64,000 nt of DNA, from the NCBI RefSeq assembly GCF_013122565.1, contig NZ_CP053258.1. The stretch is one strand, 5' to 3'. A model generated the notes under the pieces. That model searched no databases. It was not told where the DNA came from and saw only the letters and a program-made list of their open reading frames with translations. The DNA comes from Escherichia coli. Its GTDB lineage: Bacteria > Pseudomonadota > Gammaproteobacteria > Enterobacterales > Enterobacteriaceae. Of this stretch, positions 1 through 63,605 are shown in pieces. The position numbers and the translations under genes were made by a program. Every line of letters begins with the position of its first letter. Position 1 is the stretch's first letter.

Positions 1-1014
1 GTAGTGACTTTGGAGCAATTGCCTGACATTCGCGATTTAGAACGTCAACATGAGCGGGGAATTCAGCATGAAATTGAAAGAGTTAAAGCTGAACTACATC
101 GACTGAACATTGAGTTGACCAAACGTATGTCTGAAGCCAAACGTGTGGATACCGGGGCGCTCGTTGAGGCAGGGGCAGATTTGGACGATATTCCTGTTTA
201 TTTACAGCGTTTGCAGGAACTGACCGAAGAAGCCCTGCCGGAAAAGCTCAATCGCTTCCTTGATTATCTTAATCGTTCATCCGATGACGGCGTAACACAA
301 CTGCTTAGCCATATTGAGCATGAGGTGCTGGTAATTGAGGAGCGCCTCAATGAACTCAATGAAACCATGTTCAGGGTTGATTTTCAGCCGGATCGCTACC
401 TGCGTCTGGATACCAAAAAAGTTGTCCATGAAAGCCTGCGCACGCTTGAAAAAGCACAGCGTCAGCTAAATGCCGCACGATTTGTTGATGATAATGGCGA
501 GAGCCATTATAAGGCTTTGCAGGTACTGGTGGCGCAATTGCGGGATGCTTGTGAACGAAACCGTACCCTGGGAGCAAAAGCGCTACTGGATCCCCGTTTT
601 CGACTCGAGTTCGCCGTATCGGTGATGGATCGTCAGAGCGGAAATGTGATTGAGTCTCGTACCGGCTCACAGGGTGGTAGCGGCGGAGAAAAAGAGATCA
701 TCGCTTCTTACGTGTTAACAGCTTCACTTAGCTACGCACTTTGTCCTGCGGGGAGCCGTTATCCGCTTTTCGGTACCATTATCCTTGATGAAGCCTTCTC
801 CCGCAGTTCTCATGCGGTGGCGGGTAGGATCATTGCCGCGCTTAGAGAATTTGGCTTACATGCAGTATTTATCACCCCAAATAAGGAAATGCGCCTGCTG
901 CGTGACCATACTCGTTCGGCGATTGTTGTCCACCGGCGCGGTCAGAATTCCAATATGGCCTCTCTGAGCTGGGAAGAGCTTGAACGACACTACCAGCGAC
1001 GGGGGAACGCGTAG
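1..1014 (+). CDS. jetC: C-terminal fragment of an SMC-like ATPase, Wadjet JetC / MksB-like (5' end lies outside the window)
   Basis: Supplied ORF 4..1014 reads through the window start. The translation carries an ABC/SMC signature-like SGGEK, a Walker B IILDEAF and a downstream His (H-loop-like), which together look like the C-terminal head of an SMC/Rad50-type ATPase. It is immediately followed by a Toprim-type gene, the JetC-JetD order. Confidence 0.55.
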   Translation, partial: VVTLEQLPDIRDLERQHERGIQHEIERVKAELHRLNIELTKRMSEAKRVDTGALVEAGADLDDIPVYLQRLQELTEEALPEKLNRFLDYLNRSSDDGVTQLLSHIEHEVLVIEERLNELNETMFRVDFQPDRYLRLDTKKVVHESLRTLEKAQRQLNAARFVDDNGESHYKALQVLVAQLRDACERNRTLGAKALLDPRFRLEFAVSVMDRQSGNVIESRTGSQGGSGGEKEIIASYVLTASLSYALCPAGSRYPLFGTIILDEAFSRSSHAVAGRIIAALREFGLHAVFITPNKEMRLLRDHTRSAIVVHRRGQNSNMASLSWEELERHYQRRGNA

Positions 1015-1015
1015 G

Positions 1016-2164
1016 ATGTATTCCCCAGATGAATTGCGTGAAAAGCTTGCCCGGCAGTGGGATAGCGCAAAACTTCGGGCTGAACGCTTACTGTCCCCCG
1101 GTAACTGGCCGCTCTGCCTGCCTATTGGTAAACCTTCCACGAAAATATTTGCAGAGCAGACTCAGCGCGTTTTGCAGCACGTACAGCGATGGAGGCAAGT
1201 TGCGGTTGGGCACGTGGAATGGGAAGCGGTGAGTTTTCGGGCAAGTGATACACCAGTATTAATGCCGTTGCGCTGGATTCTGAATAGCCCTTCTGAGTGG
1301 ATCAACGCCGCTGCGGATCCGGTTGTGAGCCGGGAATTTCGCTTGCTGGAAGGAATTATTGAACAAGTTAATCCCATTTTTCACCCGCTGTTGGTAAAGC
1401 ATCGCTCTCTCTGGCGGCACAAAGATCCGCAGGGCGTCATCAGCGCCGCCACGCTGGCCTGCCGACTAGAGCCGGGCTGCGCAAAAGGGCTGCCGTTAAG
1501 ATTGCTTTCCGGGCAAGGAGTGGATACCAAATTTATCGAGAATAATATTTCGTTATTAACCCGACTGTTAGACGTGCGGTTTTCAGGAGAAGCCAGCGAG
1601 CAGGGATTAACAACTTTTCTTGATGCTTTTGATGAGTCCAGTCACTGGGTTTTAGTTGTACCATTATCACCCGGCTTACTTCCTTTTAAAAAATGCCGGG
1701 TAACAACGGCGGAACTGGCAGAAACAACATTACCCGCGTCGCAAGTGCTGGTGGTTGAAAATGAGCAGTGTCTGCATCATCTTCCAGCATTATCTGACAC
1801 TATCGCGATTTTAGGCTGTGGCCTGGACGTGCAATGGCTATCCAGTTCGGTTCTGGATGAAAAACGCGTTGCCTATTGGGGGGACATGGATAGCTGGGGA
1901 TTACTGATGCTGGCGAGAGCCAGGCGCTGTCGTCCGACCCTTGATGCCCTGCTCATGAACCGTGAGTTGTTTGAGCAGTATGCCAGTCATAGCGCCGTTC
2001 CAGAACCGGTCATAGCGAAGGAAGCGGTACCCGATGGCTTGCTTAACGAAGAGGCCGATTTTTATCGCTACTTAACCCGTTTACCGCGTGGTCGTCTGGA
2101 GCAGGAGTTTTTGCCAGTGGGGATTGCGGAAGAGGCGCTTCTCAGGTGGGGAAAAGAGAGTTAA
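1016..2164 (+). CDS. jetD: Wadjet JetD / MksG-like Toprim-domain protein (DUF2220-type)
   Basis: ORF 980..2164; the likely start is the ATG at 1016 (MYSPDEL), one base after the upstream stop codon. The C-terminal half has LVVENEQ and YWGDMDSWG motifs consistent with the Toprim acidic residues of JetD/MksG. About 382 aa, the typical JetD size. Confidence 0.55.
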   Translation: MYSPDELREKLARQWDSAKLRAERLLSPGNWPLCLPIGKPSTKIFAEQTQRVLQHVQRWRQVAVGHVEWEAVSFRASDTPVLMPLRWILNSPSEWINAAADPVVSREFRLLEGIIEQVNPIFHPLLVKHRSLWRHKDPQGVISAATLACRLEPGCAKGLPLRLLSGQGVDTKFIENNISLLTRLLDVRFSGEASEQGLTTFLDAFDESSHWVLVVPLSPGLLPFKKCRVTTAELAETTLPASQVLVVENEQCLHHLPALSDTIAILGCGLDVQWLSSSVLDEKRVAYWGDMDSWGLLMLARARRCRPTLDALLMNRELFEQYASHSAVPEPVIAKEAVPDGLLNEEADFYRYLTRLPRGRLEQEFLPVGIAEEALLRWGKES

Positions 2165-2520
2165 AAAAGTCATGCTTGTTCTGGAAGGTTATTTACGCGG
2201 TATTTTGGTAGTGGTTGCGAAAAGTCTGCGTTGATGGTCCTGATACCTTACCGGATAGAGGGACTTTCCATCAGTCAGTTTAGATACTGTGGCAACTGTC
2301 GCCTTTAGGTGGACAAATGCATAAATTATTAAACTATTAAATTTCTTGTTTTCTGGCGGCAGAGAGAAGGTATATCAGAGGGTACTGAGGTGTATAAAAG
2401 TCACGAACATCCGTGAAAAGGCGAAAAAACCAGCCAATAGATAATGCTTTGCAACGGCCAGAAATCTACCGTAGCCAGAAAGTGAAAAAGCCCCGCTTTG
2501 CAGCGAGGCCTTATGAATAG

Positions 2521-2596
2521 TGGTGCCCGGACTCGGAATCGAACCAAGGACACGGGGATTTTCAATCCCCTGCTCTACCGACTGAGCTATCCGGGC
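2521..2596 (-). tRNA. pheV: tRNA-Phe (anticodon GAA)
   Basis: Reverse complement reads GCCCGGATAGCTCAGTCGGTAGAGCAGGGGATTGAAAATCCCCGTGTCCTTGGTTCGATTCCGAGTCCGGGCACCA: a 76-nt cloverleaf with a GAA anticodon loop and 3' CCA. Placement next to yqgA/speC indicates pheV rather than pheU. Confidence 0.9.
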
Positions 2597-3409: not shown

Positions 3410-3806
3410 AAGAGTTCCTGTTAACTGTATTGTCTGATTTTCTTATTATGAACTTTTTGCCTTGTTGATGGCTTGTCTGGTCGCAAAGACCTGGCTTGCA
3501 CGCTTTAGCGAAAGGTGCCATGATTGCGCGAATTTTCTCCTCTCTGTACGGAGTTTGCCCGATGCACGCCACCTCCTTACATTCTCTCGCTTATCGCCGT
3601 TTCGCGCGAAACTCTTCTCTTTTTATGCTACTACTCATGCGGTGAAGTTAACGCACGCTCACTGCAGGACAACAGTAAAATCAGAGCGTTTCTGCTTTTA
3701 CTGATGTCTGGCGGTCGGAGCTGGTGACCAGTTTGACCCATATCTCATGGGGCAGGGTTTTCCACCTTGTCCGGTATTCTTACTTCCCCGAAACGGGTTT
3801 GCGCTT

Positions 3807-31052: not shown

Positions 31053-31200
31053 GTCATCTGCCTGGTTGAATTTTTTACACAGTCCCTTGTCTGGCACAAG
31101 GGACTTATCATTTAAAACCTATCCTGTTAATTAAGTCATCTTACCCTGACTGCTGTTTTTTAATGGATTGTTATTATCGCGTTTTTAATGGAATAAATAG

Positions 31201-32763
31201 ATGGAACGCACTCTTCCCTGGAAGCCTCTTCTTTGTTTGTTATTTCTTTTATCAACTGGCTGCGATAGAGCAGAAAAACAGAAAATTGCCGCACAGCTGC
31301 AACAAGACAAAGAAGCTATTTCCTCTGTCGTCAAAAAGAGTTATCGCGCATTATGTGGCCCTGAGTTTGTCACCAGCATAGATTCGCACGATCGCCTTGC
31401 GGAAATGCAGCAAGTATTTACGCCTGCTTTAATGGAGCCTGTACTGAAATACTGGCAAGAGTCACCCAAAACGTGTAAACGACGTTTCCCCAGTTATAGC
31501 GATCCTTCAGCGACCTTCGTCGAAGGCGACAAGGCGCAGATTGGTGCTTTTTTTGGTCACCAATCTGATATTGATATTCCAATGGAGTTAATCCGGCAAG
31601 GGGATGGTAAATGGAAGATTGCTGCGATTGATATTGCATCGTTACACGAGTTTGAAAAAAACGGTCGGGTTACTGATGAGGTGCAGAAAAAAATAGATTT
31701 GCTTAAAAAACGCTCATTCAAGCAACATAGGGATTCCCCTGTGCTGACGAGGACCGCGCCAGAGCGGGTCAGTAAGTCCCCTTTGACATCGATGGAGCAA
31801 ACAGTTACGGAGCAAGACTCTTCCTGGCTGGATGTCTTACTGACAATAGGCAAATATGCCCTTTATCTGGTAGCGATAATACTTATTCTCGCCTTGGTGG
31901 CTGTTTTGTGGATTGGTTATGGCCTGGTGTTCGCCGGACATCGCCTTTTCAAAGCATCCTGTAGAGATCCCTCAATTCAAAAAATTCCTGTGGCTGAACG
32001 TTGGGCAATGGCAGTCGGCGCGCCTTATGCCATTGCGGGTAACAATCACTGGGCGCGACGAGTCGTTAATGATGATTCCGAGGAAGCAGAGAATGATTGC
32101 AAAAGTGAAGTTGAGTCCCTTGCTGACATGTGGGGCGTCTTTGATCGGGATTCGTTACTTGAGCAACTCTTAGCTTTGTTTGTTGCAGGGCATCGTTCAG
32201 TTTATGAAGAACAGATCAAAAACGATAGCGAAATGCCGGATGCTGAATATCGCGCGTTCGCTCAGCAATTAGCCCAGAACGCGAAATCAAGTAGCGAAGC
32301 GAAAGAGCGTTTGTGGCAGCTACAGATGGTCAGAAAAAATCGACGTAAAATATGCGATATAGATTTTTGTGCCTGGGATATGGTGCGTTTTGTCATGCTA
32401 TGTAATAGCGGGGCGCAAGTGGGATACATTACCCAGCGTGAAATGGTCGATTTTTCGATGCTGGCAGCCAGACGCGTACAGCAACATTACAGAAGCTGGC
32501 GCGAATTGGCCGGGCATTTTTTGCTGGCCCGTTGGTACTGGAAAGCAACGGATAAACGGCACCTGATTACCCATATTCTTTTTAAGAAAGCCATTACATC
32601 TTTATTAAAAGAGCAGGGGAGTCCGTGGCGTACTTTACCCTGGGATACTCCATTACCTGAAGGAACAGAGACGGCTTTTGCCTGGGCTTGTGGCGTAAGC
32701 ACTGCCGATGTAGTAGAGGTGCGATTGGATACACCAGATAAAGCAATCTACGAAGCGAATTGA
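31201..32763 (+). CDS. Hypothetical 520-aa lipoprotein/membrane protein with a possible DUF1266-like C-terminal domain (accessory)
   Basis: N-terminal signal peptide with lipobox (LLSTGC), a roughly 190-aa soluble region, a long hydrophobic segment (LDVLLTIGKYALYLVAIILILALVAVLWIGYGLVFAG), then a roughly 280-aa C-terminal region with CAWDMVRF and LLARWYW motifs that remind me of DUF1266 (YbeR/YbeU-type). The family call is from memory only. Confidence 0.5.
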   Translation: MERTLPWKPLLCLLFLLSTGCDRAEKQKIAAQLQQDKEAISSVVKKSYRALCGPEFVTSIDSHDRLAEMQQVFTPALMEPVLKYWQESPKTCKRRFPSYSDPSATFVEGDKAQIGAFFGHQSDIDIPMELIRQGDGKWKIAAIDIASLHEFEKNGRVTDEVQKKIDLLKKRSFKQHRDSPVLTRTAPERVSKSPLTSMEQTVTEQDSSWLDVLLTIGKYALYLVAIILILALVAVLWIGYGLVFAGHRLFKASCRDPSIQKIPVAERWAMAVGAPYAIAGNNHWARRVVNDDSEEAENDCKSEVESLADMWGVFDRDSLLEQLLALFVAGHRSVYEEQIKNDSEMPDAEYRAFAQQLAQNAKSSSEAKERLWQLQMVRKNRRKICDIDFCAWDMVRFVMLCNSGAQVGYITQREMVDFSMLAARRVQQHYRSWRELAGHFLLARWYWKATDKRHLITHILFKKAITSLLKEQGSPWRTLPWDTPLPEGTETAFAWACGVSTADVVEVRLDTPDKAIYEAN

Positions 32764-32816
32764 TGCTCCAAATGATTGAACTTGTTTAATGACTGTGGCC
32801 GGCTCTGAATGAAAAT

Positions 32817-32842
32817 TTCTCCGACATTCCTGTCGGAGAAAT
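32817..32842. terminator. Hairpin between the convergent 520-aa gene and loiP
   Basis: TTTCTCCGAC-ATTCCTG-TCGGAGAAA inverted repeat. Confidence 0.35.
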
Positions 32843-32848
32843 ATGAAA

Positions 32849-35876: not shown

Positions 35877-35895
35877 TCAGTAAGACGTTTTGTGA

Positions 35896-36268
<373 letters not shown>

Positions 36269-37177
36269 TTATTTAGTTGAGATAAACGGAACGGTGCTGC
36301 CGGGGATCATGGTATCGGGCAGTTTACCGTCCCAACGTTCGGCAGTGGTGAGGGCTACAAGTCCGGGATTATCCCGCAGAGCTTCACCGCGCAGGCGGAT
36401 TGCTTCTGCTTCAGCCGCACTTTTTAAACGAATAGTTTCAGCCTCTGCCGCGCCTCTTACGCGAATAGTTTCCGCTTCTGCTTTGGCTGCCGCCAGTTTA
36501 CTGTCTGCTTCTGCCTGGGCCTGAGTTACCGCTATTTGCGCCTGGATTTTCTCTGTTTCCAGATTTTGCTTACGCGTGGCAATGGCGACTTCTGCTTTCA
36601 TTCGGTCTTCAATCGACTTTTCATAAGCGTCAGAAAAATCAATATTTTCAATCTGGACCCCGTCAATTACCACTGGCCCAACAACCGCTTTGCGCATCGC
36701 ATTTTGCAGATCCTGAACCAGTTTTGTACGATCCTGTACGGCGCTGATGGCGGTATATTGGCCGAAAACGTTCTCCAGTTGAGTTGGCAACTGACGGACA
36801 ATCAGACGATCTTTTAATGCTTCAATGGTGTTGTAGGTGGTATAAACCGCGCCTGCTTCTGAAGGTTTAATGTGGAAGCTGACTGATACTGTCATTTGTG
36901 CCGGTTGCTGGTCGCGGCTGTAGGCCTGTAATCCCTGATAGACCACAGCCTGATTACGCGTGGAAATTTTCTCCACGCTTTCCATAAACGGGATCTTAAA
37001 ACCCAGACCCGGCTCGGCAACTTTTACGATTTTTCCGTAGCGCAGCAAAATGCCGCGTTCACCTTCATTAACGGTGTAATACGAGAGAAATGGCAGCACA
37101 ACCACGGCAAGCACGCCAATGGCGATAGCAATAGATTTTTGAGGGCGAAATGAGGTTATAGAAACAGGTGCTTTCAT
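36269..37177 (-). CDS. SPFH/band-7 (prohibitin/HflC-like) membrane protein (accessory)
   Basis: 302-aa ORF with an N-terminal TM helix (IAIAIGVLAVVVLPFL), an SPFH core with the PGLGFKIPF motif, and a C-terminal Ala/Glu-rich coiled-coil repeat (AEAETIRVRGAAEAETIRLKSAAEAEAIRLRG). It is not QmcA, HflK or HflC by sequence. Confidence 0.6.
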   Translation of the reverse strand: MKAPVSITSFRPQKSIAIAIGVLAVVVLPFLSYYTVNEGERGILLRYGKIVKVAEPGLGFKIPFMESVEKISTRNQAVVYQGLQAYSRDQQPAQMTVSVSFHIKPSEAGAVYTTYNTIEALKDRLIVRQLPTQLENVFGQYTAISAVQDRTKLVQDLQNAMRKAVVGPVVIDGVQIENIDFSDAYEKSIEDRMKAEVAIATRKQNLETEKIQAQIAVTQAQAEADSKLAAAKAEAETIRVRGAAEAETIRLKSAAEAEAIRLRGEALRDNPGLVALTTAERWDGKLPDTMIPGSTVPFISTK

Positions 37178-37554
37178 GACAATCTTCCTTGAGTAAAGTG
37201 TGGGAATATGTCACATGAGATGAGGAGAAAACAGCCGACAGGTGAGAATTCAGAATCTATAAAGGGGTATAGCGAAAAAACATTGCATTAGAAAAGTATG
37301 TTTTCGAACATTCAATAAATAAATAGAGACATGCATCACAAATACAATAACAAACAAAGCGTTGATTTTGTGATAAACATAACAAATACAAAGTCGACTT
37401 TAAAAATATCAATTTCATATTGTTGTTATTTAAGCTTTTATTATTTTGGTTTGTGGGGTTTTTCTTCTCGCGTACCCAATTGCTTTCATTAAATCGCACG
37501 AGTATTTTATTTTTACCGCCGGACGGTACCCTAAAAATAAAATAAGGATAATTT

Positions 37555-60101: not shown

Positions 60102-60170
60102 TGCTGTTGTCTGCTCCTGGTAAATGCTTTTTCCGCACTATGACACAATTTTGCGTTGGGTACAGAGCAT

Positions 60171-61496
60171 TTAACGCATACAAAAGCGGTCGTAATGGAA
60201 GTTTTGGCTGGCAATCCCATTTTCATATAACCCTTTGCTGAGCGCTTTGGCAAAACTCTGTGGGCCGCAAAACCAGAAATGGGTGTCACCTTTATTTGCT
60301 ATTTTATCAGCAAGATAGTGCGACTGTAGGCGCTCACCTTTATGCGCATCAAGCAGATGCAGTGTGACACTGGCCAGGGCACAAAGTGAGGTAAGTTTAT
60401 CAACATACCATGCATCCTCGCTTCGGCTGACGCAATACCAGAGATCCACAGGAACACGGGACGCGCCATGCTGGTTCAGATACTCAAGCTGGGCGATAAA
60501 GGGGGTAATGCCGATGCCTCCAGCTATCCATACCTGGCGGGAGCAAGGGAGAGTAAAATCAAACTTTCCCCATGGCCCTTCAACGATGGCGGACTGGCCG
60601 ATTTTTATCGAGGATGCAAGGGTAGAGGTATAATCCCCTAAATTTTTGATGGCAAAGCGCAACGTGTTCTTCTCTATTGCATATGAAGCGATAGTAAAAG
60701 GGTGAGATTCTTTACTGTGTGCGAACGTTAAGAATGCAAACTGACCCGGAGAATAGTCGATGGCATGTTCCAGCTCCAGTATGACTTCGGTAATTTGTCC
60801 CGGATGGTTAACAATACTTTTAATGGTGGCCTGATGCTTGTTTTTATTACCGTTTAATTTCAGCAGCGAAATGAAAGCCGCAAAGACGCCTGGGATGGTA
60901 ATTAAAATTAATAAATACGCCGCAGGAGTTTCCCACCAATATGATTTAAACAAAGCAGTAAACACATGAAAGGCAATTGCCAGATAAAAAACAGGGAACA
61001 AACGGTGAACAAGATGAAATAAATGATAGGGAACCTTTTTGCTTAGAGACACGAAAACCATCGCTATCATAATAAACATTGCACATTCACCCGCTAACAG
61101 TCCCGCATGAAGCCAATTTTCTTGTACTGGCGTCAGGTTAATATCAACGATTTTACCAGGGTGAGTAAGCCAGCAAAAGGCGACGAATAACTGGGGTAAT
61201 TTTTCATCCAGCCAGTGGGTGAAAGCAAAAGCTATGGCGCATATTCCTGCCCACTTATGTAATCGCCACGCTTTATCCAGACCGCCCAGCACTTTGTTAA
61301 ACCATGATGAACGCAGCGATAAACACATCGTCAGCGTCATCAGACACCACGCAAGGGTTCCCGTAAAAAAGAGTATGTTTTGTCGAAGGAACCATATTAG
61401 CGCGATTGGCTTTTCACGAAAAATATCACCGGACGACAAAAAAATAAGGCATGTGACAAAGCAAACCAATGTACCTGTAAGATTAGCTTTTTTCAT
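60171..61496 (-). CDS. NOX/FRE-family membrane flavocytochrome-like protein: ferric-reductase TM domain plus FAD- and NAD-binding domains (accessory)
   Basis: 441-aa ORF with N-terminal TM helices carrying spaced histidines (HKWAGICAIAFAFTHW ... HLFHLVH ... HVF), then HPFTIAS (FAD-binding-type) and GGIGITPF (NAD(P)-binding-type) motifs. Distinctly AT-rich by eye. Confidence 0.55.
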   Translation of the reverse strand: MKKANLTGTLVCFVTCLIFLSSGDIFREKPIALIWFLRQNILFFTGTLAWCLMTLTMCLSLRSSWFNKVLGGLDKAWRLHKWAGICAIAFAFTHWLDEKLPQLFVAFCWLTHPGKIVDINLTPVQENWLHAGLLAGECAMFIMIAMVFVSLSKKVPYHLFHLVHRLFPVFYLAIAFHVFTALFKSYWWETPAAYLLILITIPGVFAAFISLLKLNGNKNKHQATIKSIVNHPGQITEVILELEHAIDYSPGQFAFLTFAHSKESHPFTIASYAIEKNTLRFAIKNLGDYTSTLASSIKIGQSAIVEGPWGKFDFTLPCSRQVWIAGGIGITPFIAQLEYLNQHGASRVPVDLWYCVSRSEDAWYVDKLTSLCALASVTLHLLDAHKGERLQSHYLADKIANKGDTHFWFCGPQSFAKALSKGLYENGIASQNFHYDRFCMR

Positions 61497-61557
61497 TTTT
61501 TATTTCATTTTGGCAGAGGAGCATAGAATAGTTCCATGCTCCCGTTAAACAGGGTGA

Positions 61558-61818
61558 TTATTTATAGAAAATTACAGTGGCGTGGATATAATTTTTACCG
61601 GAGAAAGAACTGATGTAGTAATTACTGGCTTGCAATTCTTCCGCTTTCTCTTTGATTTGACTTTCAACGCCCGCTGGATTGCTATTGTGTGTGGAAATAC
61701 TCACTTTTGATATCTGTTCAAGATTATTGTCCGGTTTTTGTATCTCGGTTGCTGCAAATACGTGTCCTGTGAGAGTGCAAAGAAATAACGCGGCAAATAA
61801 ATTTTGCTTAATAGACAT
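61558..61818 (-). CDS. Small secreted YhcN/BhsA-family (DUF1471) protein
   Basis: 86-aa ORF with a signal peptide (LFAALFLCTLTGHVFA) and a C-terminus ending ...ATVIFYK, typical of BhsA/YdgH-like proteins. Confidence 0.5.
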   Translation of the reverse strand: MSIKQNLFAALFLCTLTGHVFAATEIQKPDNNLEQISKVSISTHNSNPAGVESQIKEKAEELQASNYYISSFSGKNYIHATVIFYK

Positions 61819-61834
61819 AATAACTCCTTTTATA

Positions 61835-62464
61835 TTAAAGAAAATGATTAAATACTTGTGTAATAAGATCAGGGATTTGCGCTAATGCATTTTGCTCGGC
61901 GAGTTCGCGTCCCGGTTGGGTTTTGTCGACGCCTTCCGCACGTAAAATATGTGTATTGGTAATGCCCATTAATTTCAGCGTGGCTTGCAGGTAACTTTCC
62001 TGATGATCCAGCGCCAGATGTGCTTTATCGCAATAGATACCGCCGCGCGTCGAGACAATAAACGTCGGTTTATCCGTCAGTAACCCAACGGCACCAGCGG
62101 AAGTAAAACGAAACGTTAAACCAGCCTGACAGACCTGATCTATCCAGGTTTTGAGGCCAGATGAAACGCTGTGATTAATCATCGGCGCGCCAATAATGAG
62201 CACATCGCACGATGCCAGTTCTTCAATAGCGGCGTGAATCCCATTCACCTCCTGCTGAATTTGTGCGTTCTCGCACTCCGCTTTACCGCAAAGCGCCAGA
62301 AAGGTTTCTTCACGCAAATGGGGCGGCGGCGTCAGGCCGACGTCGCGATGAATAATTGTGGCTTGCGGAAAGTGTTGGCAAAGCGCTTCTACCAGCGCCT
62401 GGCTTAATTTCCGCGAACTTGAATGCTTAAGCATTGGGCTGCTGTCGATATGGAGAATTTTCAT
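61835..62464 (-). CDS. FMN-dependent NADH-azoreductase-like flavoprotein (AzoR family)
   Basis: 209-aa ORF; MKILHIDSSP and the overall layout resemble AzoR/ACP-phosphodiesterase-family flavodoxin-like proteins. Confidence 0.6.
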   Translation of the reverse strand: MKILHIDSSPMLKHSSSRKLSQALVEALCQHFPQATIIHRDVGLTPPPHLREETFLALCGKAECENAQIQQEVNGIHAAIEELASCDVLIIGAPMINHSVSSGLKTWIDQVCQAGLTFRFTSAGAVGLLTDKPTFIVSTRGGIYCDKAHLALDHQESYLQATLKLMGITNTHILRAEGVDKTQPGRELAEQNALAQIPDLITQVFNHFL

Positions 62465-62564
62465 GGGCTTGCTCTCGTTTCTGCGATGAGAGAAGTTTAA
62501 CTGTTGTTGATATGGTGATTAAATAGACATAATTGAACTTCATTGTTGTGAAAATAGAACAATC

Positions 62565-63461
62565 ATGATCGACTGGAATGATTACTACTACTTTGCCCTG
62601 ATTGCCGATGAAGGCAGCTACAGCCAGGCGGCGCTGCGTGCGGGCGTGTCGAAATCGGTATTAAGCCGACGAATGGCTGCGCTGGAGGAGCGCCTTGGCG
62701 TACGGCTTATTCAGCGAACTACGCGGCGTCTGGCCCTGACGGCGGAAGGCGAACAGTTTGCCGTCGAATGTCGGGCGCTGGTGGCGCAGGGGGAACGGGC
62801 CAGAGCGGTGGTGATGGCCGCCCAGGAAAGCCCACAGGGAATGCTGCGCGTCAGCGCACCGGTATTTATGGCTGAAACATGGTTTGGTGAGTTTGTCAGT
62901 GAGTTTATCGCCCGCTGGCCCCTGGCGAAGGTGCAACTGCTGGCAATTAATCGCCCGGTGGATATGGTCGCTGAAGGCATTGATATTGCGCTGGTTACGG
63001 CTTCCGGCGCGCTTGCGGACTCGACGCTGCATTATAAAAAATTACATACCCAGGCCGATATTTTAGTTGCCAGTTCGCAGTGGCTGGCCCGCCATCCGCA
63101 GGTGAAGGTCATTGACGATCTTAACCGCGTTGACGGGATCCTCCGCCTGACGAACAATGGCGGGAGCCAGTGGCAGTTAATTAATGGCGAACAGGAGATT
63201 ACGCTGCAACCCGAGGCTCGTTTGCAGACGAATAACATTCGCGTCATGTTGCAGGCAGTGCTTGGTGGGAATGGCGTGGCGTTATTGCCTCAATTTGCCT
63301 GTAAACAGGGGCTTGCGAACGGTGAATTGGTGCGCCTGTTTGCACCGTGGAGCGGCATACCCAGACCGTTGTATGCTTTATTTGCGGGGCGAAAGGGGAT
63401 GCCCGCCATTGCGCGATATTTTATGGATGAGTTATCTGTACGGCTTGCCAACGGGGTCTGA
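62565..63461 (+). CDS. LysR-family transcriptional regulator, divergent from the AzoR-like gene
   Basis: 298-aa ORF with an N-terminal HTH (YSQAALRAGVSKSVLSRRMAALE). I recall K-12 carrying only a LysR pseudogene fragment (yqfE) at this position. Confidence 0.65.
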   Translation: MIDWNDYYYFALIADEGSYSQAALRAGVSKSVLSRRMAALEERLGVRLIQRTTRRLALTAEGEQFAVECRALVAQGERARAVVMAAQESPQGMLRVSAPVFMAETWFGEFVSEFIARWPLAKVQLLAINRPVDMVAEGIDIALVTASGALADSTLHYKKLHTQADILVASSQWLARHPQVKVIDDLNRVDGILRLTNNGGSQWQLINGEQEITLQPEARLQTNNIRVMLQAVLGGNGVALLPQFACKQGLANGELVRLFAPWSGIPRPLYALFAGRKGMPAIARYFMDELSVRLANGV

Positions 63462-63476
63462 CTCGCTTTTTTTGTA

Positions 63477-63605
63477 TATACTCGTCATACTTCAAGTAGC
63501 ATGTGCTGCGTCTGCGTTCGCTCACCCCAGTCACTTACTTCTGTAAGCTCCTGGGGATTCACTCTCTTGTCGCCTTCCTGCAACTCGAATTATTTAGAGT
63601 ATAAT
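63477..63605. repeat. ERIC (IRU) element, inverted relative to the copy at 48622..48748
   Basis: Its reverse complement matches 48622..48748 almost base for base, including the GTGAATCCCCAGGAGCTTACA core. Confidence 0.7.

What the first reader, a model, noticed from the sequence alone, without database searches (positions are those of the whole stretch)
1..2164. Wadjet-like JetC–JetD pair ending a genomic island beside tRNA-Phe
SMC-like ATPase head motifs followed by a Toprim-type protein match the jetC–jetD end of Wadjet (MksBEFG-like) anti-plasmid systems. They sit about 350 bp from the 3' end of pheV, a classic island integration site, so the rest of the operon (jetA, jetB, the jetC 5' part) and the island should lie upstream of the window.
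Basis: partly seen in the sequence, partly recalled or inferred. Interest (0 to 1): 0.55.

Follow-up and report, generated by a model that had tools for sequence, protein, structure and literature searches.

The report
Known E. coli Wadjet jetC–jetD genes
These are the last two genes of a Wadjet (JetABCD) anti-plasmid system whose proteins are letter-for-letter those of E. coli GF4-3, which has already been purified, solved by cryo-EM and shown to cut circular plasmids, so the finding is correct but already known.

Summary
Window 1-1014 (+) encodes the C-terminal 337 residues of JetC, and 1016-2164 (+) encodes a complete 382-aa JetD. tRNA-Phe (pheV) lies 356 bp downstream on the minus strand. 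Both proteins are 100% identical to the E. coli GF4-3 JetC and JetD chains in the PDB (8as8, 8q72). The only difference is the depositors' engineered E248A change, where the window carries the wild-type Glu. Contigs identical to the window show the rest of the operon just upstream: glcA, a 412-bp gap, then jetA, jetB and the 5' part of jetC, all intact.

This is the type I Wadjet system of Liu et al. 2022 and Roisné-Hamelin et al. 2023. It is an SMC loop-extruding motor that cleaves small circular DNA through the JetD Toprim nuclease.

No integrase and no repeat of the pheV 3' end lie upstream, and the GC content is host-like. In other strains the true pheV islands insert between jetD and pheV. 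The operon is rare: it is complete in 8 of 5,426 finished E. coli genomes and intact in 4, with many truncated remnants elsewhere.

Novelty: already known. Interest: low.

The parts
1..1014 (+). 3' part of jetC: JetC residues 759-1095 plus the TAG stop. It covers the C-terminal coiled-coil arm and the C-terminal half of the SMC ATPase head. The gene starts about 2.27 kb upstream of the window.
   Evidence: PADLOC JetC1 5.4e-161. Pfam SbcC_Walker_B. 100% identical to PDB 8as8_A residues 759-1095. Full 1095-aa gene on the identical contigs L004 and L006.
481..483 (+). Codon for JetC F919, the residue that inserts into the JetD aCAP pocket.
   Evidence: Position computed. Role taken from the paper text (F919 mutation inactivates JET in vivo).
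679..693 (+). ABC/SMC signature motif SGGEK (JetC 985-989).
   Evidence: lies within the SbcC_Walker_B match.
781..798 (+). Walker B motif ILDEAF (JetC 1019-1024). E1022 is the residue mutated in the published ATPase-dead E1022Q variant.
1016..2164 (+). jetD, complete (382 aa): N-terminal arm/CAP (DUF3322) and C-terminal Toprim nuclease domain. The start codon is 1 nt after the jetC stop, and a GGGGGA Shine-Dalgarno-like run lies 8 nt upstream.
   Evidence: PADLOC JetD1 5.1e-194. Pfam DUF3322 + JetD_C. Identical to PDB 8q72_M apart from the engineered E248A. Junction sequence.
1757..1759 (+). Codon GAA for JetD E248, the Toprim catalytic glutamate. It is wild type here.
   Evidence: E248A abolishes cleavage and plasmid loss.
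1883..1891 (+). Toprim DxD motif (D290-M-D292 in GDMDSWG).
   Evidence: Position. Assigning it as the metal-binding DxD is inferred from general knowledge of Toprim domains.
2165..2520 (.). 356-bp spacer between jetD and pheV. Bases 2165 to about 2361 occur only with Wadjet or its remnants. Bases about 2362-2520 also occur, at about 89% identity, next to pheV in strains that carry an integrase island there.
2487..2512 (-). Terminator-like hairpin directly after the pheV 3' end.
   Evidence: consensus scan only.
2521..2596 (-). pheV, tRNA-Phe(GAA).
   Evidence: ARAGORN; Rfam tRNA 68.3 bits.
2521..2543 (-). 3' ~23 nt of pheV, used as the attachment core by islands in other strains. In those strains a copy stays next to jetD.
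   Evidence: Matches to the window end at 2543 in 7 genomes. Alignment.

Best explanation
Window 1-2164 is the distal end of a chromosomal type I Wadjet (JetABCD, 'JET') operon that is identical in protein sequence to the one from E. coli GF4-3. The window very probably comes from that strain's chromosome. The mechanism is known from published work on these exact proteins. JetC (SMC ATPase), JetA (kleisin) and JetB (KITE) form a dimer of motor units that loads on DNA and extrudes loops using ATP. On a small circular DNA (up to about 100 kb) the two motors use up the whole circle and stall against each other, which bends the remaining DNA. A JetD dimer docks on JetC by its aCAP pocket, which takes in JetC F919, kinks that DNA and cuts it with its Toprim site (E248). 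The plasmid is thereby linearised and lost. Linear DNA and the very large chromosome escape. Shown here: gene identity, intactness, motifs and operon context. Taken from the literature: the biochemical activity. Inferred: that the operon is expressed and active in its native position.
For: JetD is 382/382 identical to PDB 8q72_M except for the engineered E248A. The JetC C-terminal 337 aa are identical to 8as8_A residues 759-1095. The best PADLOC profiles are JetC1 and JetD1, at E=5e-161 and 5e-194; Pfam gives DUF3322+JetD_C and SbcC_Walker_B. Contig L006 has 0 mismatches to window 1-2550, and L004 has none before window position 3633. Both carry glcA-jetA(498 aa)-jetB(249)-jetC(1095)-jetD with no internal stops. 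Their JetA, JetB and JetC match the GF4-3 PDB chains over their full length and the PADLOC JetA1/B1/C1 profiles. The literature on these proteins reports: the operon was recovered from strain GF4-3; six circular plasmids were lost in vivo while linear pJAZZ was retained; cleavage of circular DNA was ATP-dependent; E1022Q and E248A abolished activity; and cryo-EM showed the cleavage-competent state with the JetD Toprim at the DNA kink. GF4-3 has a complete genome, CP053258, and is reported plasmid-free. That accession is missing from the E. coli collection while its sister CP053259 is present, and the best matches in the collection are only 98.4-98.6% identical.
Against: Only the last 31% of jetC is inside the window. 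The intactness of jetA, jetB and the jetC 5' part is read from identical or near-identical contigs, not from the window. The published activity came from a P_BAD-driven copy in E. coli K-12 and from purified proteins, so native expression at the glcA-pheV locus is untested. No promoter or terminator for the operon was identified in the window. In four close relatives jetA carries a nonsense codon, so this locus can be dead in some strains.
Confidence: 0.96

Rival explanations
1. jetC-jetD are the distal cargo of a classic integrase-mobilised pheV genomic island that extends upstream of the window.
For: The operon is strain-variable: it is complete in only 8 of 5,426 finished genomes. It lies next to a tRNA hotspot. 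The 159 bp next to pheV (2362-2520) recur at about 89% identity next to pheV in strains that carry integrase islands there. That could be a relic of an old island arm.
Against: On identical contigs the operon is preceded after 412 bp by the core gene glcA, with no integrase or other mobility gene. No copy of the pheV 3' end was found upstream with up to 4 mismatches in 23 nt, or by local alignment over 10 kb. GC content is host-like. In CX12 and JNEC-KY202 the integrase-bearing islands lie between jetD and pheV and are bounded by a ~23-nt pheV repeat on the jetD side, so Wadjet is outside them.
Confidence: 0.1
2. The locus is a decaying, non-functional remnant in this genome, like the truncated jetD pieces seen in many other E. 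coli.
For: Truncations are common. jetD pieces start at window nt 1146, 1527, 1567, 2097 or 2256, and some strains keep only a jetA 5' stub. IS1 or IS3 elements flank two of the remnants examined (PT62, LHM10-1), and type VI secretion genes flank a third (14EC033). Four of the 8 full-length copies have a stop at jetA codon 206.
Against: In the window jetD is full length with wild-type catalytic residues, and the jetC part has no stop. Contigs identical to the window have all four genes intact. The GF4-3 operon with these exact proteins is active when expressed.
Confidence: 0.03
3. The upstream gene is another SMC-family ATPase (RecN, SbcC or MukB type) working in repair or chromosome condensation, and is unrelated to defence.
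For: The only Pfam hit is the generic SbcC/RAD50-like Walker B domain. RefSeq names the protein 'SbcC/MukB-like'.
Against: All nine PADLOC hits are JetC models. No NCBIfam MukB, RecN or SbcC model is hit. The sequence is identical to solved JetC. The gene is translationally coupled to jetD and preceded by jetA and jetB.
Confidence: 0.01

Closest known systems
E. coli GF4-3 JetABCD (type I Wadjet / JET nuclease); PDB 8as8, 8bfn, 8q72, 9qxr/9qxs; Liu et al. 2022 (bioRxiv 10.1101/2022.10.04.510915); Roisné-Hamelin et al. 2023 (bioRxiv 10.1101/2023.11.03.565488)
   Same: The protein sequence is identical for everything the window encodes: JetC 759-1095 and JetD 1-382. Contigs identical to the window show the same four-gene operon.
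   Different: No difference in the proteins. The deposited JetD carries an engineered E248A, and the window has the natural Glu. The window adds only the native chromosomal setting (glcA-jetABCD-pheV), which the papers I read do not discuss.
Pseudomonas aeruginosa JetABCD (PDB 7TIL JetD; 8DK1-8DK3 JetABC)
   Same: Same type I architecture. It is alignable over the full length: JetD 3-379 at 499 bits (E=5.5e-149) and the JetC tail at 518 bits.
   Different: It is an orthologue from another genus, not the same protein. Its JetD was captured in a closed, autoinhibited conformation.
Corynebacterium glutamicum MksBEFG (MksG, PDB 8B7F)
   Same: The same kind of system, an SMC-like complex plus a Toprim nuclease that acts against plasmids. 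MksG aligns with JetD residues 32-374.
   Different: Only distant similarity (E=1.5e-10, 43.8 bits).
MukBEF condensin of E. coli
   Same: An SMC-kleisin-KITE motor organised as a dimer of motor units. The PADLOC descriptions call JetC 'MukB-like' and JetB 'MukE-like'.
   Different: MukBEF has no nuclease subunit and has a housekeeping role in the chromosome. In JET the two motor units face in opposite directions (abstract). No MukB NCBIfam model is hit.

Membership tests
Type I Wadjet (JetABCD) | JetC: an SMC/MukB-like ABC ATPase with a long coiled coil; the C-terminal head carries the signature motif and Walker B | tested here: met
   PADLOC JetC1 5.4e-161. SbcC_Walker_B. SGGEK and ILDEAF located. 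Identical to PDB JetC.
Type I Wadjet (JetABCD) | JetD: DUF3322 (arm/CAP) plus a C-terminal Toprim domain with a catalytic Glu and a DxD motif | tested here: met
   PADLOC JetD1 5.1e-194 over the full length. Pfam DUF3322 + JetD_C. E248 and D290-x-D292 present. Identical to solved JetD.
Type I Wadjet (JetABCD) | JetA (DUF3375 kleisin) and JetB (DUF4194 KITE) encoded just upstream in the same operon | tested here: met
   Not inside the window. On contigs identical to the window (L006: 0 mismatches in 2,550 nt; L004: none before window position 3633), jetA and jetB precede jetC. They hit PADLOC JetA1 at 4.7e-272 and JetB1 at 1.3e-116 and the PDB JetA and JetB chains.
Type I Wadjet (JetABCD) | N-terminal JetC head (Walker A) present, so the ATPase is complete | tested here: met
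   Outside the window. L005, L006 and L007 carry a 1095-aa JetC with Pfam AAA_29 + SbcC_Walker_B. It has no internal stops and matches PDB JetC over residues 1-1095.
Type I Wadjet (JetABCD) | Activity: ATP-dependent cleavage or restriction of small circular DNA | not testable with these tools
   Published for proteins of identical sequence. Activity in the native locus is not known.
tRNA-linked integrative genomic island (pheV island) | A tyrosine integrase gene at the tRNA-proximal end | tested here: not met
   There is no such ORF in 2165-2520 and none between glcA and pheV on identical contigs. Islands with integrases in other strains are separate insertions.
tRNA-linked integrative genomic island (pheV island) | A direct repeat of the tRNA 3' end at the distal boundary | tested here: not met
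   No copy with up to 4 mismatches in 23 nt upstream of jetA in L001-L003. The best local alignment in the glcA-jetA spacer is 10 nt, and there is none in the 10 kb upstream.
tRNA-linked integrative genomic island (pheV island) | Base composition unlike the host | tested here: not met
   GC is 0.47-0.55 across the operon and similar in the flanks.
tRNA-linked integrative genomic island (pheV island) | Presence or absence varies among strains at the same site | tested here: met
   The complete operon is in 8 of 5,426 genomes, always between glcA and pheV and never on a plasmid. There are remnants in about 25 more.
MukB / RecN / SbcC housekeeping SMC-like ATPases | A match to the curated family models | tested here: not met
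   No NCBIfam family at E<=0.01. All PADLOC hits are JetC models.

The most novel reading that the evidence does not exclude
The only open point is evolutionary. The glcA-pheV Wadjet may be an old chromosomal resident of E. coli with no mobility genes that is being lost again and again. There are at least six different deletion end-points, a recurrent jetA nonsense allele, and intact copies in only 4 of 5,426 finished genomes. That pattern would point to selection against anti-plasmid immunity in plasmid-dependent lineages. The rare intact carriers, such as the plasmid-free GF4-3, would then be naturally plasmid-refractory.
Probability: 0.35. Interest if true: 0.3.

Novelty: already known. Interest (0 to 1): 0.08.

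Why it matters
Wadjet matters in general because it shows how an SMC loop-extruding motor can tell small circular foreign DNA from the chromosome. This particular locus adds nothing to that, because it encodes the very proteins on which the mechanism was worked out. The small added value is context. The model system's native home is a 7.1-kb module between glcA and pheV with no mobility genes. It is very rare and often degraded in E. coli. RefSeq annotation systematically breaks its intact jetC into two fragments, which could make automated defence-system surveys miss it.

Tried and rejected
- **RecN/SbcC/MukB identity for the ATPase:** rejected. NCBIfam gave no hit, all PADLOC hits were JetC models, and the sequence is identical to PDB JetC.
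- **Start of jetD at TTG 980 (394 aa, from the mechanical ORF list):** rejected in favour of ATG 1016. The PADLOC profile and the solved protein both begin there.
- **Distal att repeat of the pheV 3' end or an integrase upstream:** none found.
- **Compositional signature of foreign DNA:** none.
- **jetC broken in relatives, as RefSeq annotates it:** rejected. Translation shows one uninterrupted 1095-codon ORF in all eight records.
- **Intrinsic terminator for jetD on the + strand in 2165-2520:** none found. The only convincing hairpin belongs to pheV on the minus strand.
- **Other RNA families in the region:** Rfam found only the tRNA.
- **Fetching the GF4-3 chromosome (NZ_CP053258) for a direct comparison:** it is not in the collection.
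- **Not run, because 100% identity to solved structures made them unnecessary:** structure prediction, fold search and the large protein-database searches.

Full report
**1. What is in the sequence**

The + strand is open from window base 1 to a TAG stop at 1012-1014. One base later, ATG 1016 opens a 382-codon frame that ends at 2164. A GGGGGA run lies 8 nt before that ATG, and the 1-nt gap between the genes suggests translational coupling (inference). ARAGORN and Rfam place tRNA-Phe(GAA) at 2521-2596 on the minus strand. The tRNA 3' end therefore faces jetD across 356 bp. Downstream come yqgA, speC, nupG and the rest of the usual E. coli pheV neighbourhood.

**2. What the two proteins are**

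- The 337-aa fragment hits nine PADLOC models, all of them JetC. The best is PDLC00511 at E=5.4e-161, over profile positions 764-1097 of 1108. Pfam sees only the generic SbcC/RAD50 Walker B domain, and NCBIfam has no model for it.
- The 382-aa protein matches PADLOC JetD1 (PDLC00532) end to end at E=5.1e-194. It also matches Pfam DUF3322 plus JetD_C.
- Against the PDB, JetD is identical at every position to 8q72 chain M, 'JetD(E248A)', except residue 248. There the window has the natural Glu.
- The JetC fragment is identical to residues 759-1095 of 8as8 chain A.
- The functional residues are in place: JetC signature motif SGGEK (985-989), Walker B ILDEAF with E1022, the JetD-docking residue F919, and JetD E248 and D290-x-D292.

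**3. Extending upstream**

A look-up of the exact JetD sequence returned four contigs.

- L006 (SRR11451224) has no mismatch to window 1-2550. L004 (GCA_052983875.1) has none before window position 3633 and 19 in 12,164 nt overall.
- All four contigs read glcB, glcA, a 412-bp spacer, jetA (498 aa, DUF3375), jetB (249 aa), jetC (1095 aa) and jetD. L004 and L005, which extend further, then run on into yqgA and speC; L006 and L007 end about 390 nt past jetD.
- All four genes are uninterrupted.
- JetA, JetB and JetC match the PADLOC JetA1, JetB1 and JetC1 models and the GF4-3 chains in the PDB over their full length.

This is therefore a complete type I Wadjet operon, and the window holds its last 2.16 kb.

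**4. Source and prior knowledge**

- Liu et al. state that they recovered this JetABCD operon from the environmental E. coli strain GF4-3.
- Expressed in K-12, it eliminated six circular plasmids within ten generations but not the linear plasmid pJAZZ.
- Purified JetABCD cut circular but not linear DNA, at random positions, and needed ATP. JetC E1022Q and JetD E248A abolished the activity.
- Roisné-Hamelin et al. solved the plasmid-bound states. Two stalled motor units hold a U-shaped DNA segment. A JetD dimer docks on JetC through F919 and kinks that DNA into a V at its Toprim sites.
- GF4-3 (ST9286, phylogroup B1, from guinea fowl) has a complete genome and is reported plasmid-free.
- Its accession CP053258 is missing from the E. 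coli collection, while the sister genome CP053259 is present. The best collection matches are only 98.4-98.6% identical.
- I infer that the window is from GF4-3 or a near-clone. This was not shown directly.

**5. Is it the end of a pheV island?**

Only in a weak sense.

Against a classic island:
- There is no integrase and no other mobility gene between glcA and pheV.
- There is no repeat of the pheV 3' end anywhere in the 10 kb upstream.
- GC content is 0.47-0.55, like the flanks.
- In seven of the eight RefSeq genomes with the full operon, the match to the window stops at 2543, about 23 nt into the tRNA.
- In the two of these I aligned and read the annotation for (CX12, JNEC-KY202), unrelated island DNA follows, with cbtA-type toxin-antitoxin genes, antirestriction genes and integrase genes.
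- Real pheV islands therefore insert between jetD and pheV, and Wadjet lies outside their att boundaries.

For variability:
- The Wadjet-specific stretch runs from about 186 bp after glcA to about 159 bp before pheV, roughly 7.1 kb. It is present in full in only 8 of 5,426 genomes, always at this site and never on a plasmid.
- The 159 bp next to pheV recur at about 89% identity beside integrase islands in other strains. That could be a relic of an older insertion. I did not resolve this.

**6. Decay of the locus in the species**

- Of the eight full-length copies, four carry a stop at jetA codon 206 and four are intact.
- Other genomes keep only pieces. Some have jetD pieces starting at window nt 1146 (MB53, apparently fused to the jetA start), 1527 (next to IS1), 1567 (next to type VI secretion genes, in at least 11 genomes), 2097 or 2256. 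Others have a jetA 5' stub next to an IS3 element.
- This looks like repeated loss, which is ordinary for defence loci.

**7. Verdict**

The Wadjet assignment is correct and exact. The island framing is only partly right. The system is already known in full biochemical and structural detail, so novelty is 'already known' and interest is low.

What remains untested is whether the operon is expressed and active at its native position. The published activity used P_BAD in K-12 and purified protein.

Noticed in passing
L001-L003 and L016-L020 (RefSeq relatives); corresponds to jetC, window 1-1014 and about 2.27 kb upstream: In all eight RefSeq genomes with the operon, PGAP annotates jetC as two fragments: a 156-nt 'ATP-binding protein, incomplete' and a 448-aa 'SbcC/MukB-like Walker B' protein. 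Translation shows a single uninterrupted 1095-codon ORF. This annotation artefact could hide Wadjet from gene-based surveys.
   Followed up: yes
L001, L003, L019, L020 (jetA, upstream of the window): Four of the eight full-length jetABCD copies in complete E. coli genomes share a nonsense codon at jetA codon 206. Only four genomes (CX12, CX08, UTME-7, wlxctx60) have all four genes intact.
   Followed up: yes
Equivalents of window 1146-2520 in L008, L009, L010, L013 and hits H9-H25: Many E. coli keep truncated jetD pieces next to pheV, with at least five different break-points (window nt 1146, 1527, 1567, 2097, 2256). Some keep a jetA 5' stub instead. In the genomes I examined the neighbours were IS1 (PT62), IS3 (LHM10-1) or type VI secretion genes (14EC033). 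This points to repeated independent loss of Wadjet at this site.
   Followed up: partly
window 2362-2520: The 159 bp next to the pheV 3' end are not universal E. coli flank. They recur at about 89% identity in roughly 180 genomes, in one of which (strain 201609) they lie between pheV and an integrase-bearing island. They may be a relic of an older island arm.
   Followed up: partly
window 31054-32848: A segment absent from strain FHI_NMBU_11, between speB and loiP. It encodes a 520-aa protein (31201-32763, +) with an N-terminal signal or lipoprotein-like start and no NCBIfam match.
   Followed up: partly
window 35878-37476: A segment absent from FHI_NMBU_11, between tkt and cmtB. It encodes a 302-aa protein on the minus strand (36269-37177) with weak, below-cutoff NCBIfam similarity to HflC/HflK (likely SPFH/band-7 type). 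It also holds two Rfam ES036 (CssrF) matches at 35983-36025 and 36157-36199.
   Followed up: partly
window 60154-63599: A 3.4-kb segment absent from FHI_NMBU_11, between argP and rpiA. It encodes a 441-aa membrane protein with a C-terminal FAD/NAD-binding reductase domain, a 209-aa azoreductase-like protein and a divergent LysR-type regulator.
   Followed up: partly
window 14429-14585: Two tandem Rfam naRNA4 (CssrE) matches, just above the gathering score.
   Followed up: no
L001 22523-22599: tRNA-Phe of strain FHI_NMBU_11 is annotated as 77 nt, with an extra C in the acceptor/T-arm region (TGGTGCCCCGG versus TGGTGCCCGG). This may be an assembly homopolymer error.
   Followed up: no
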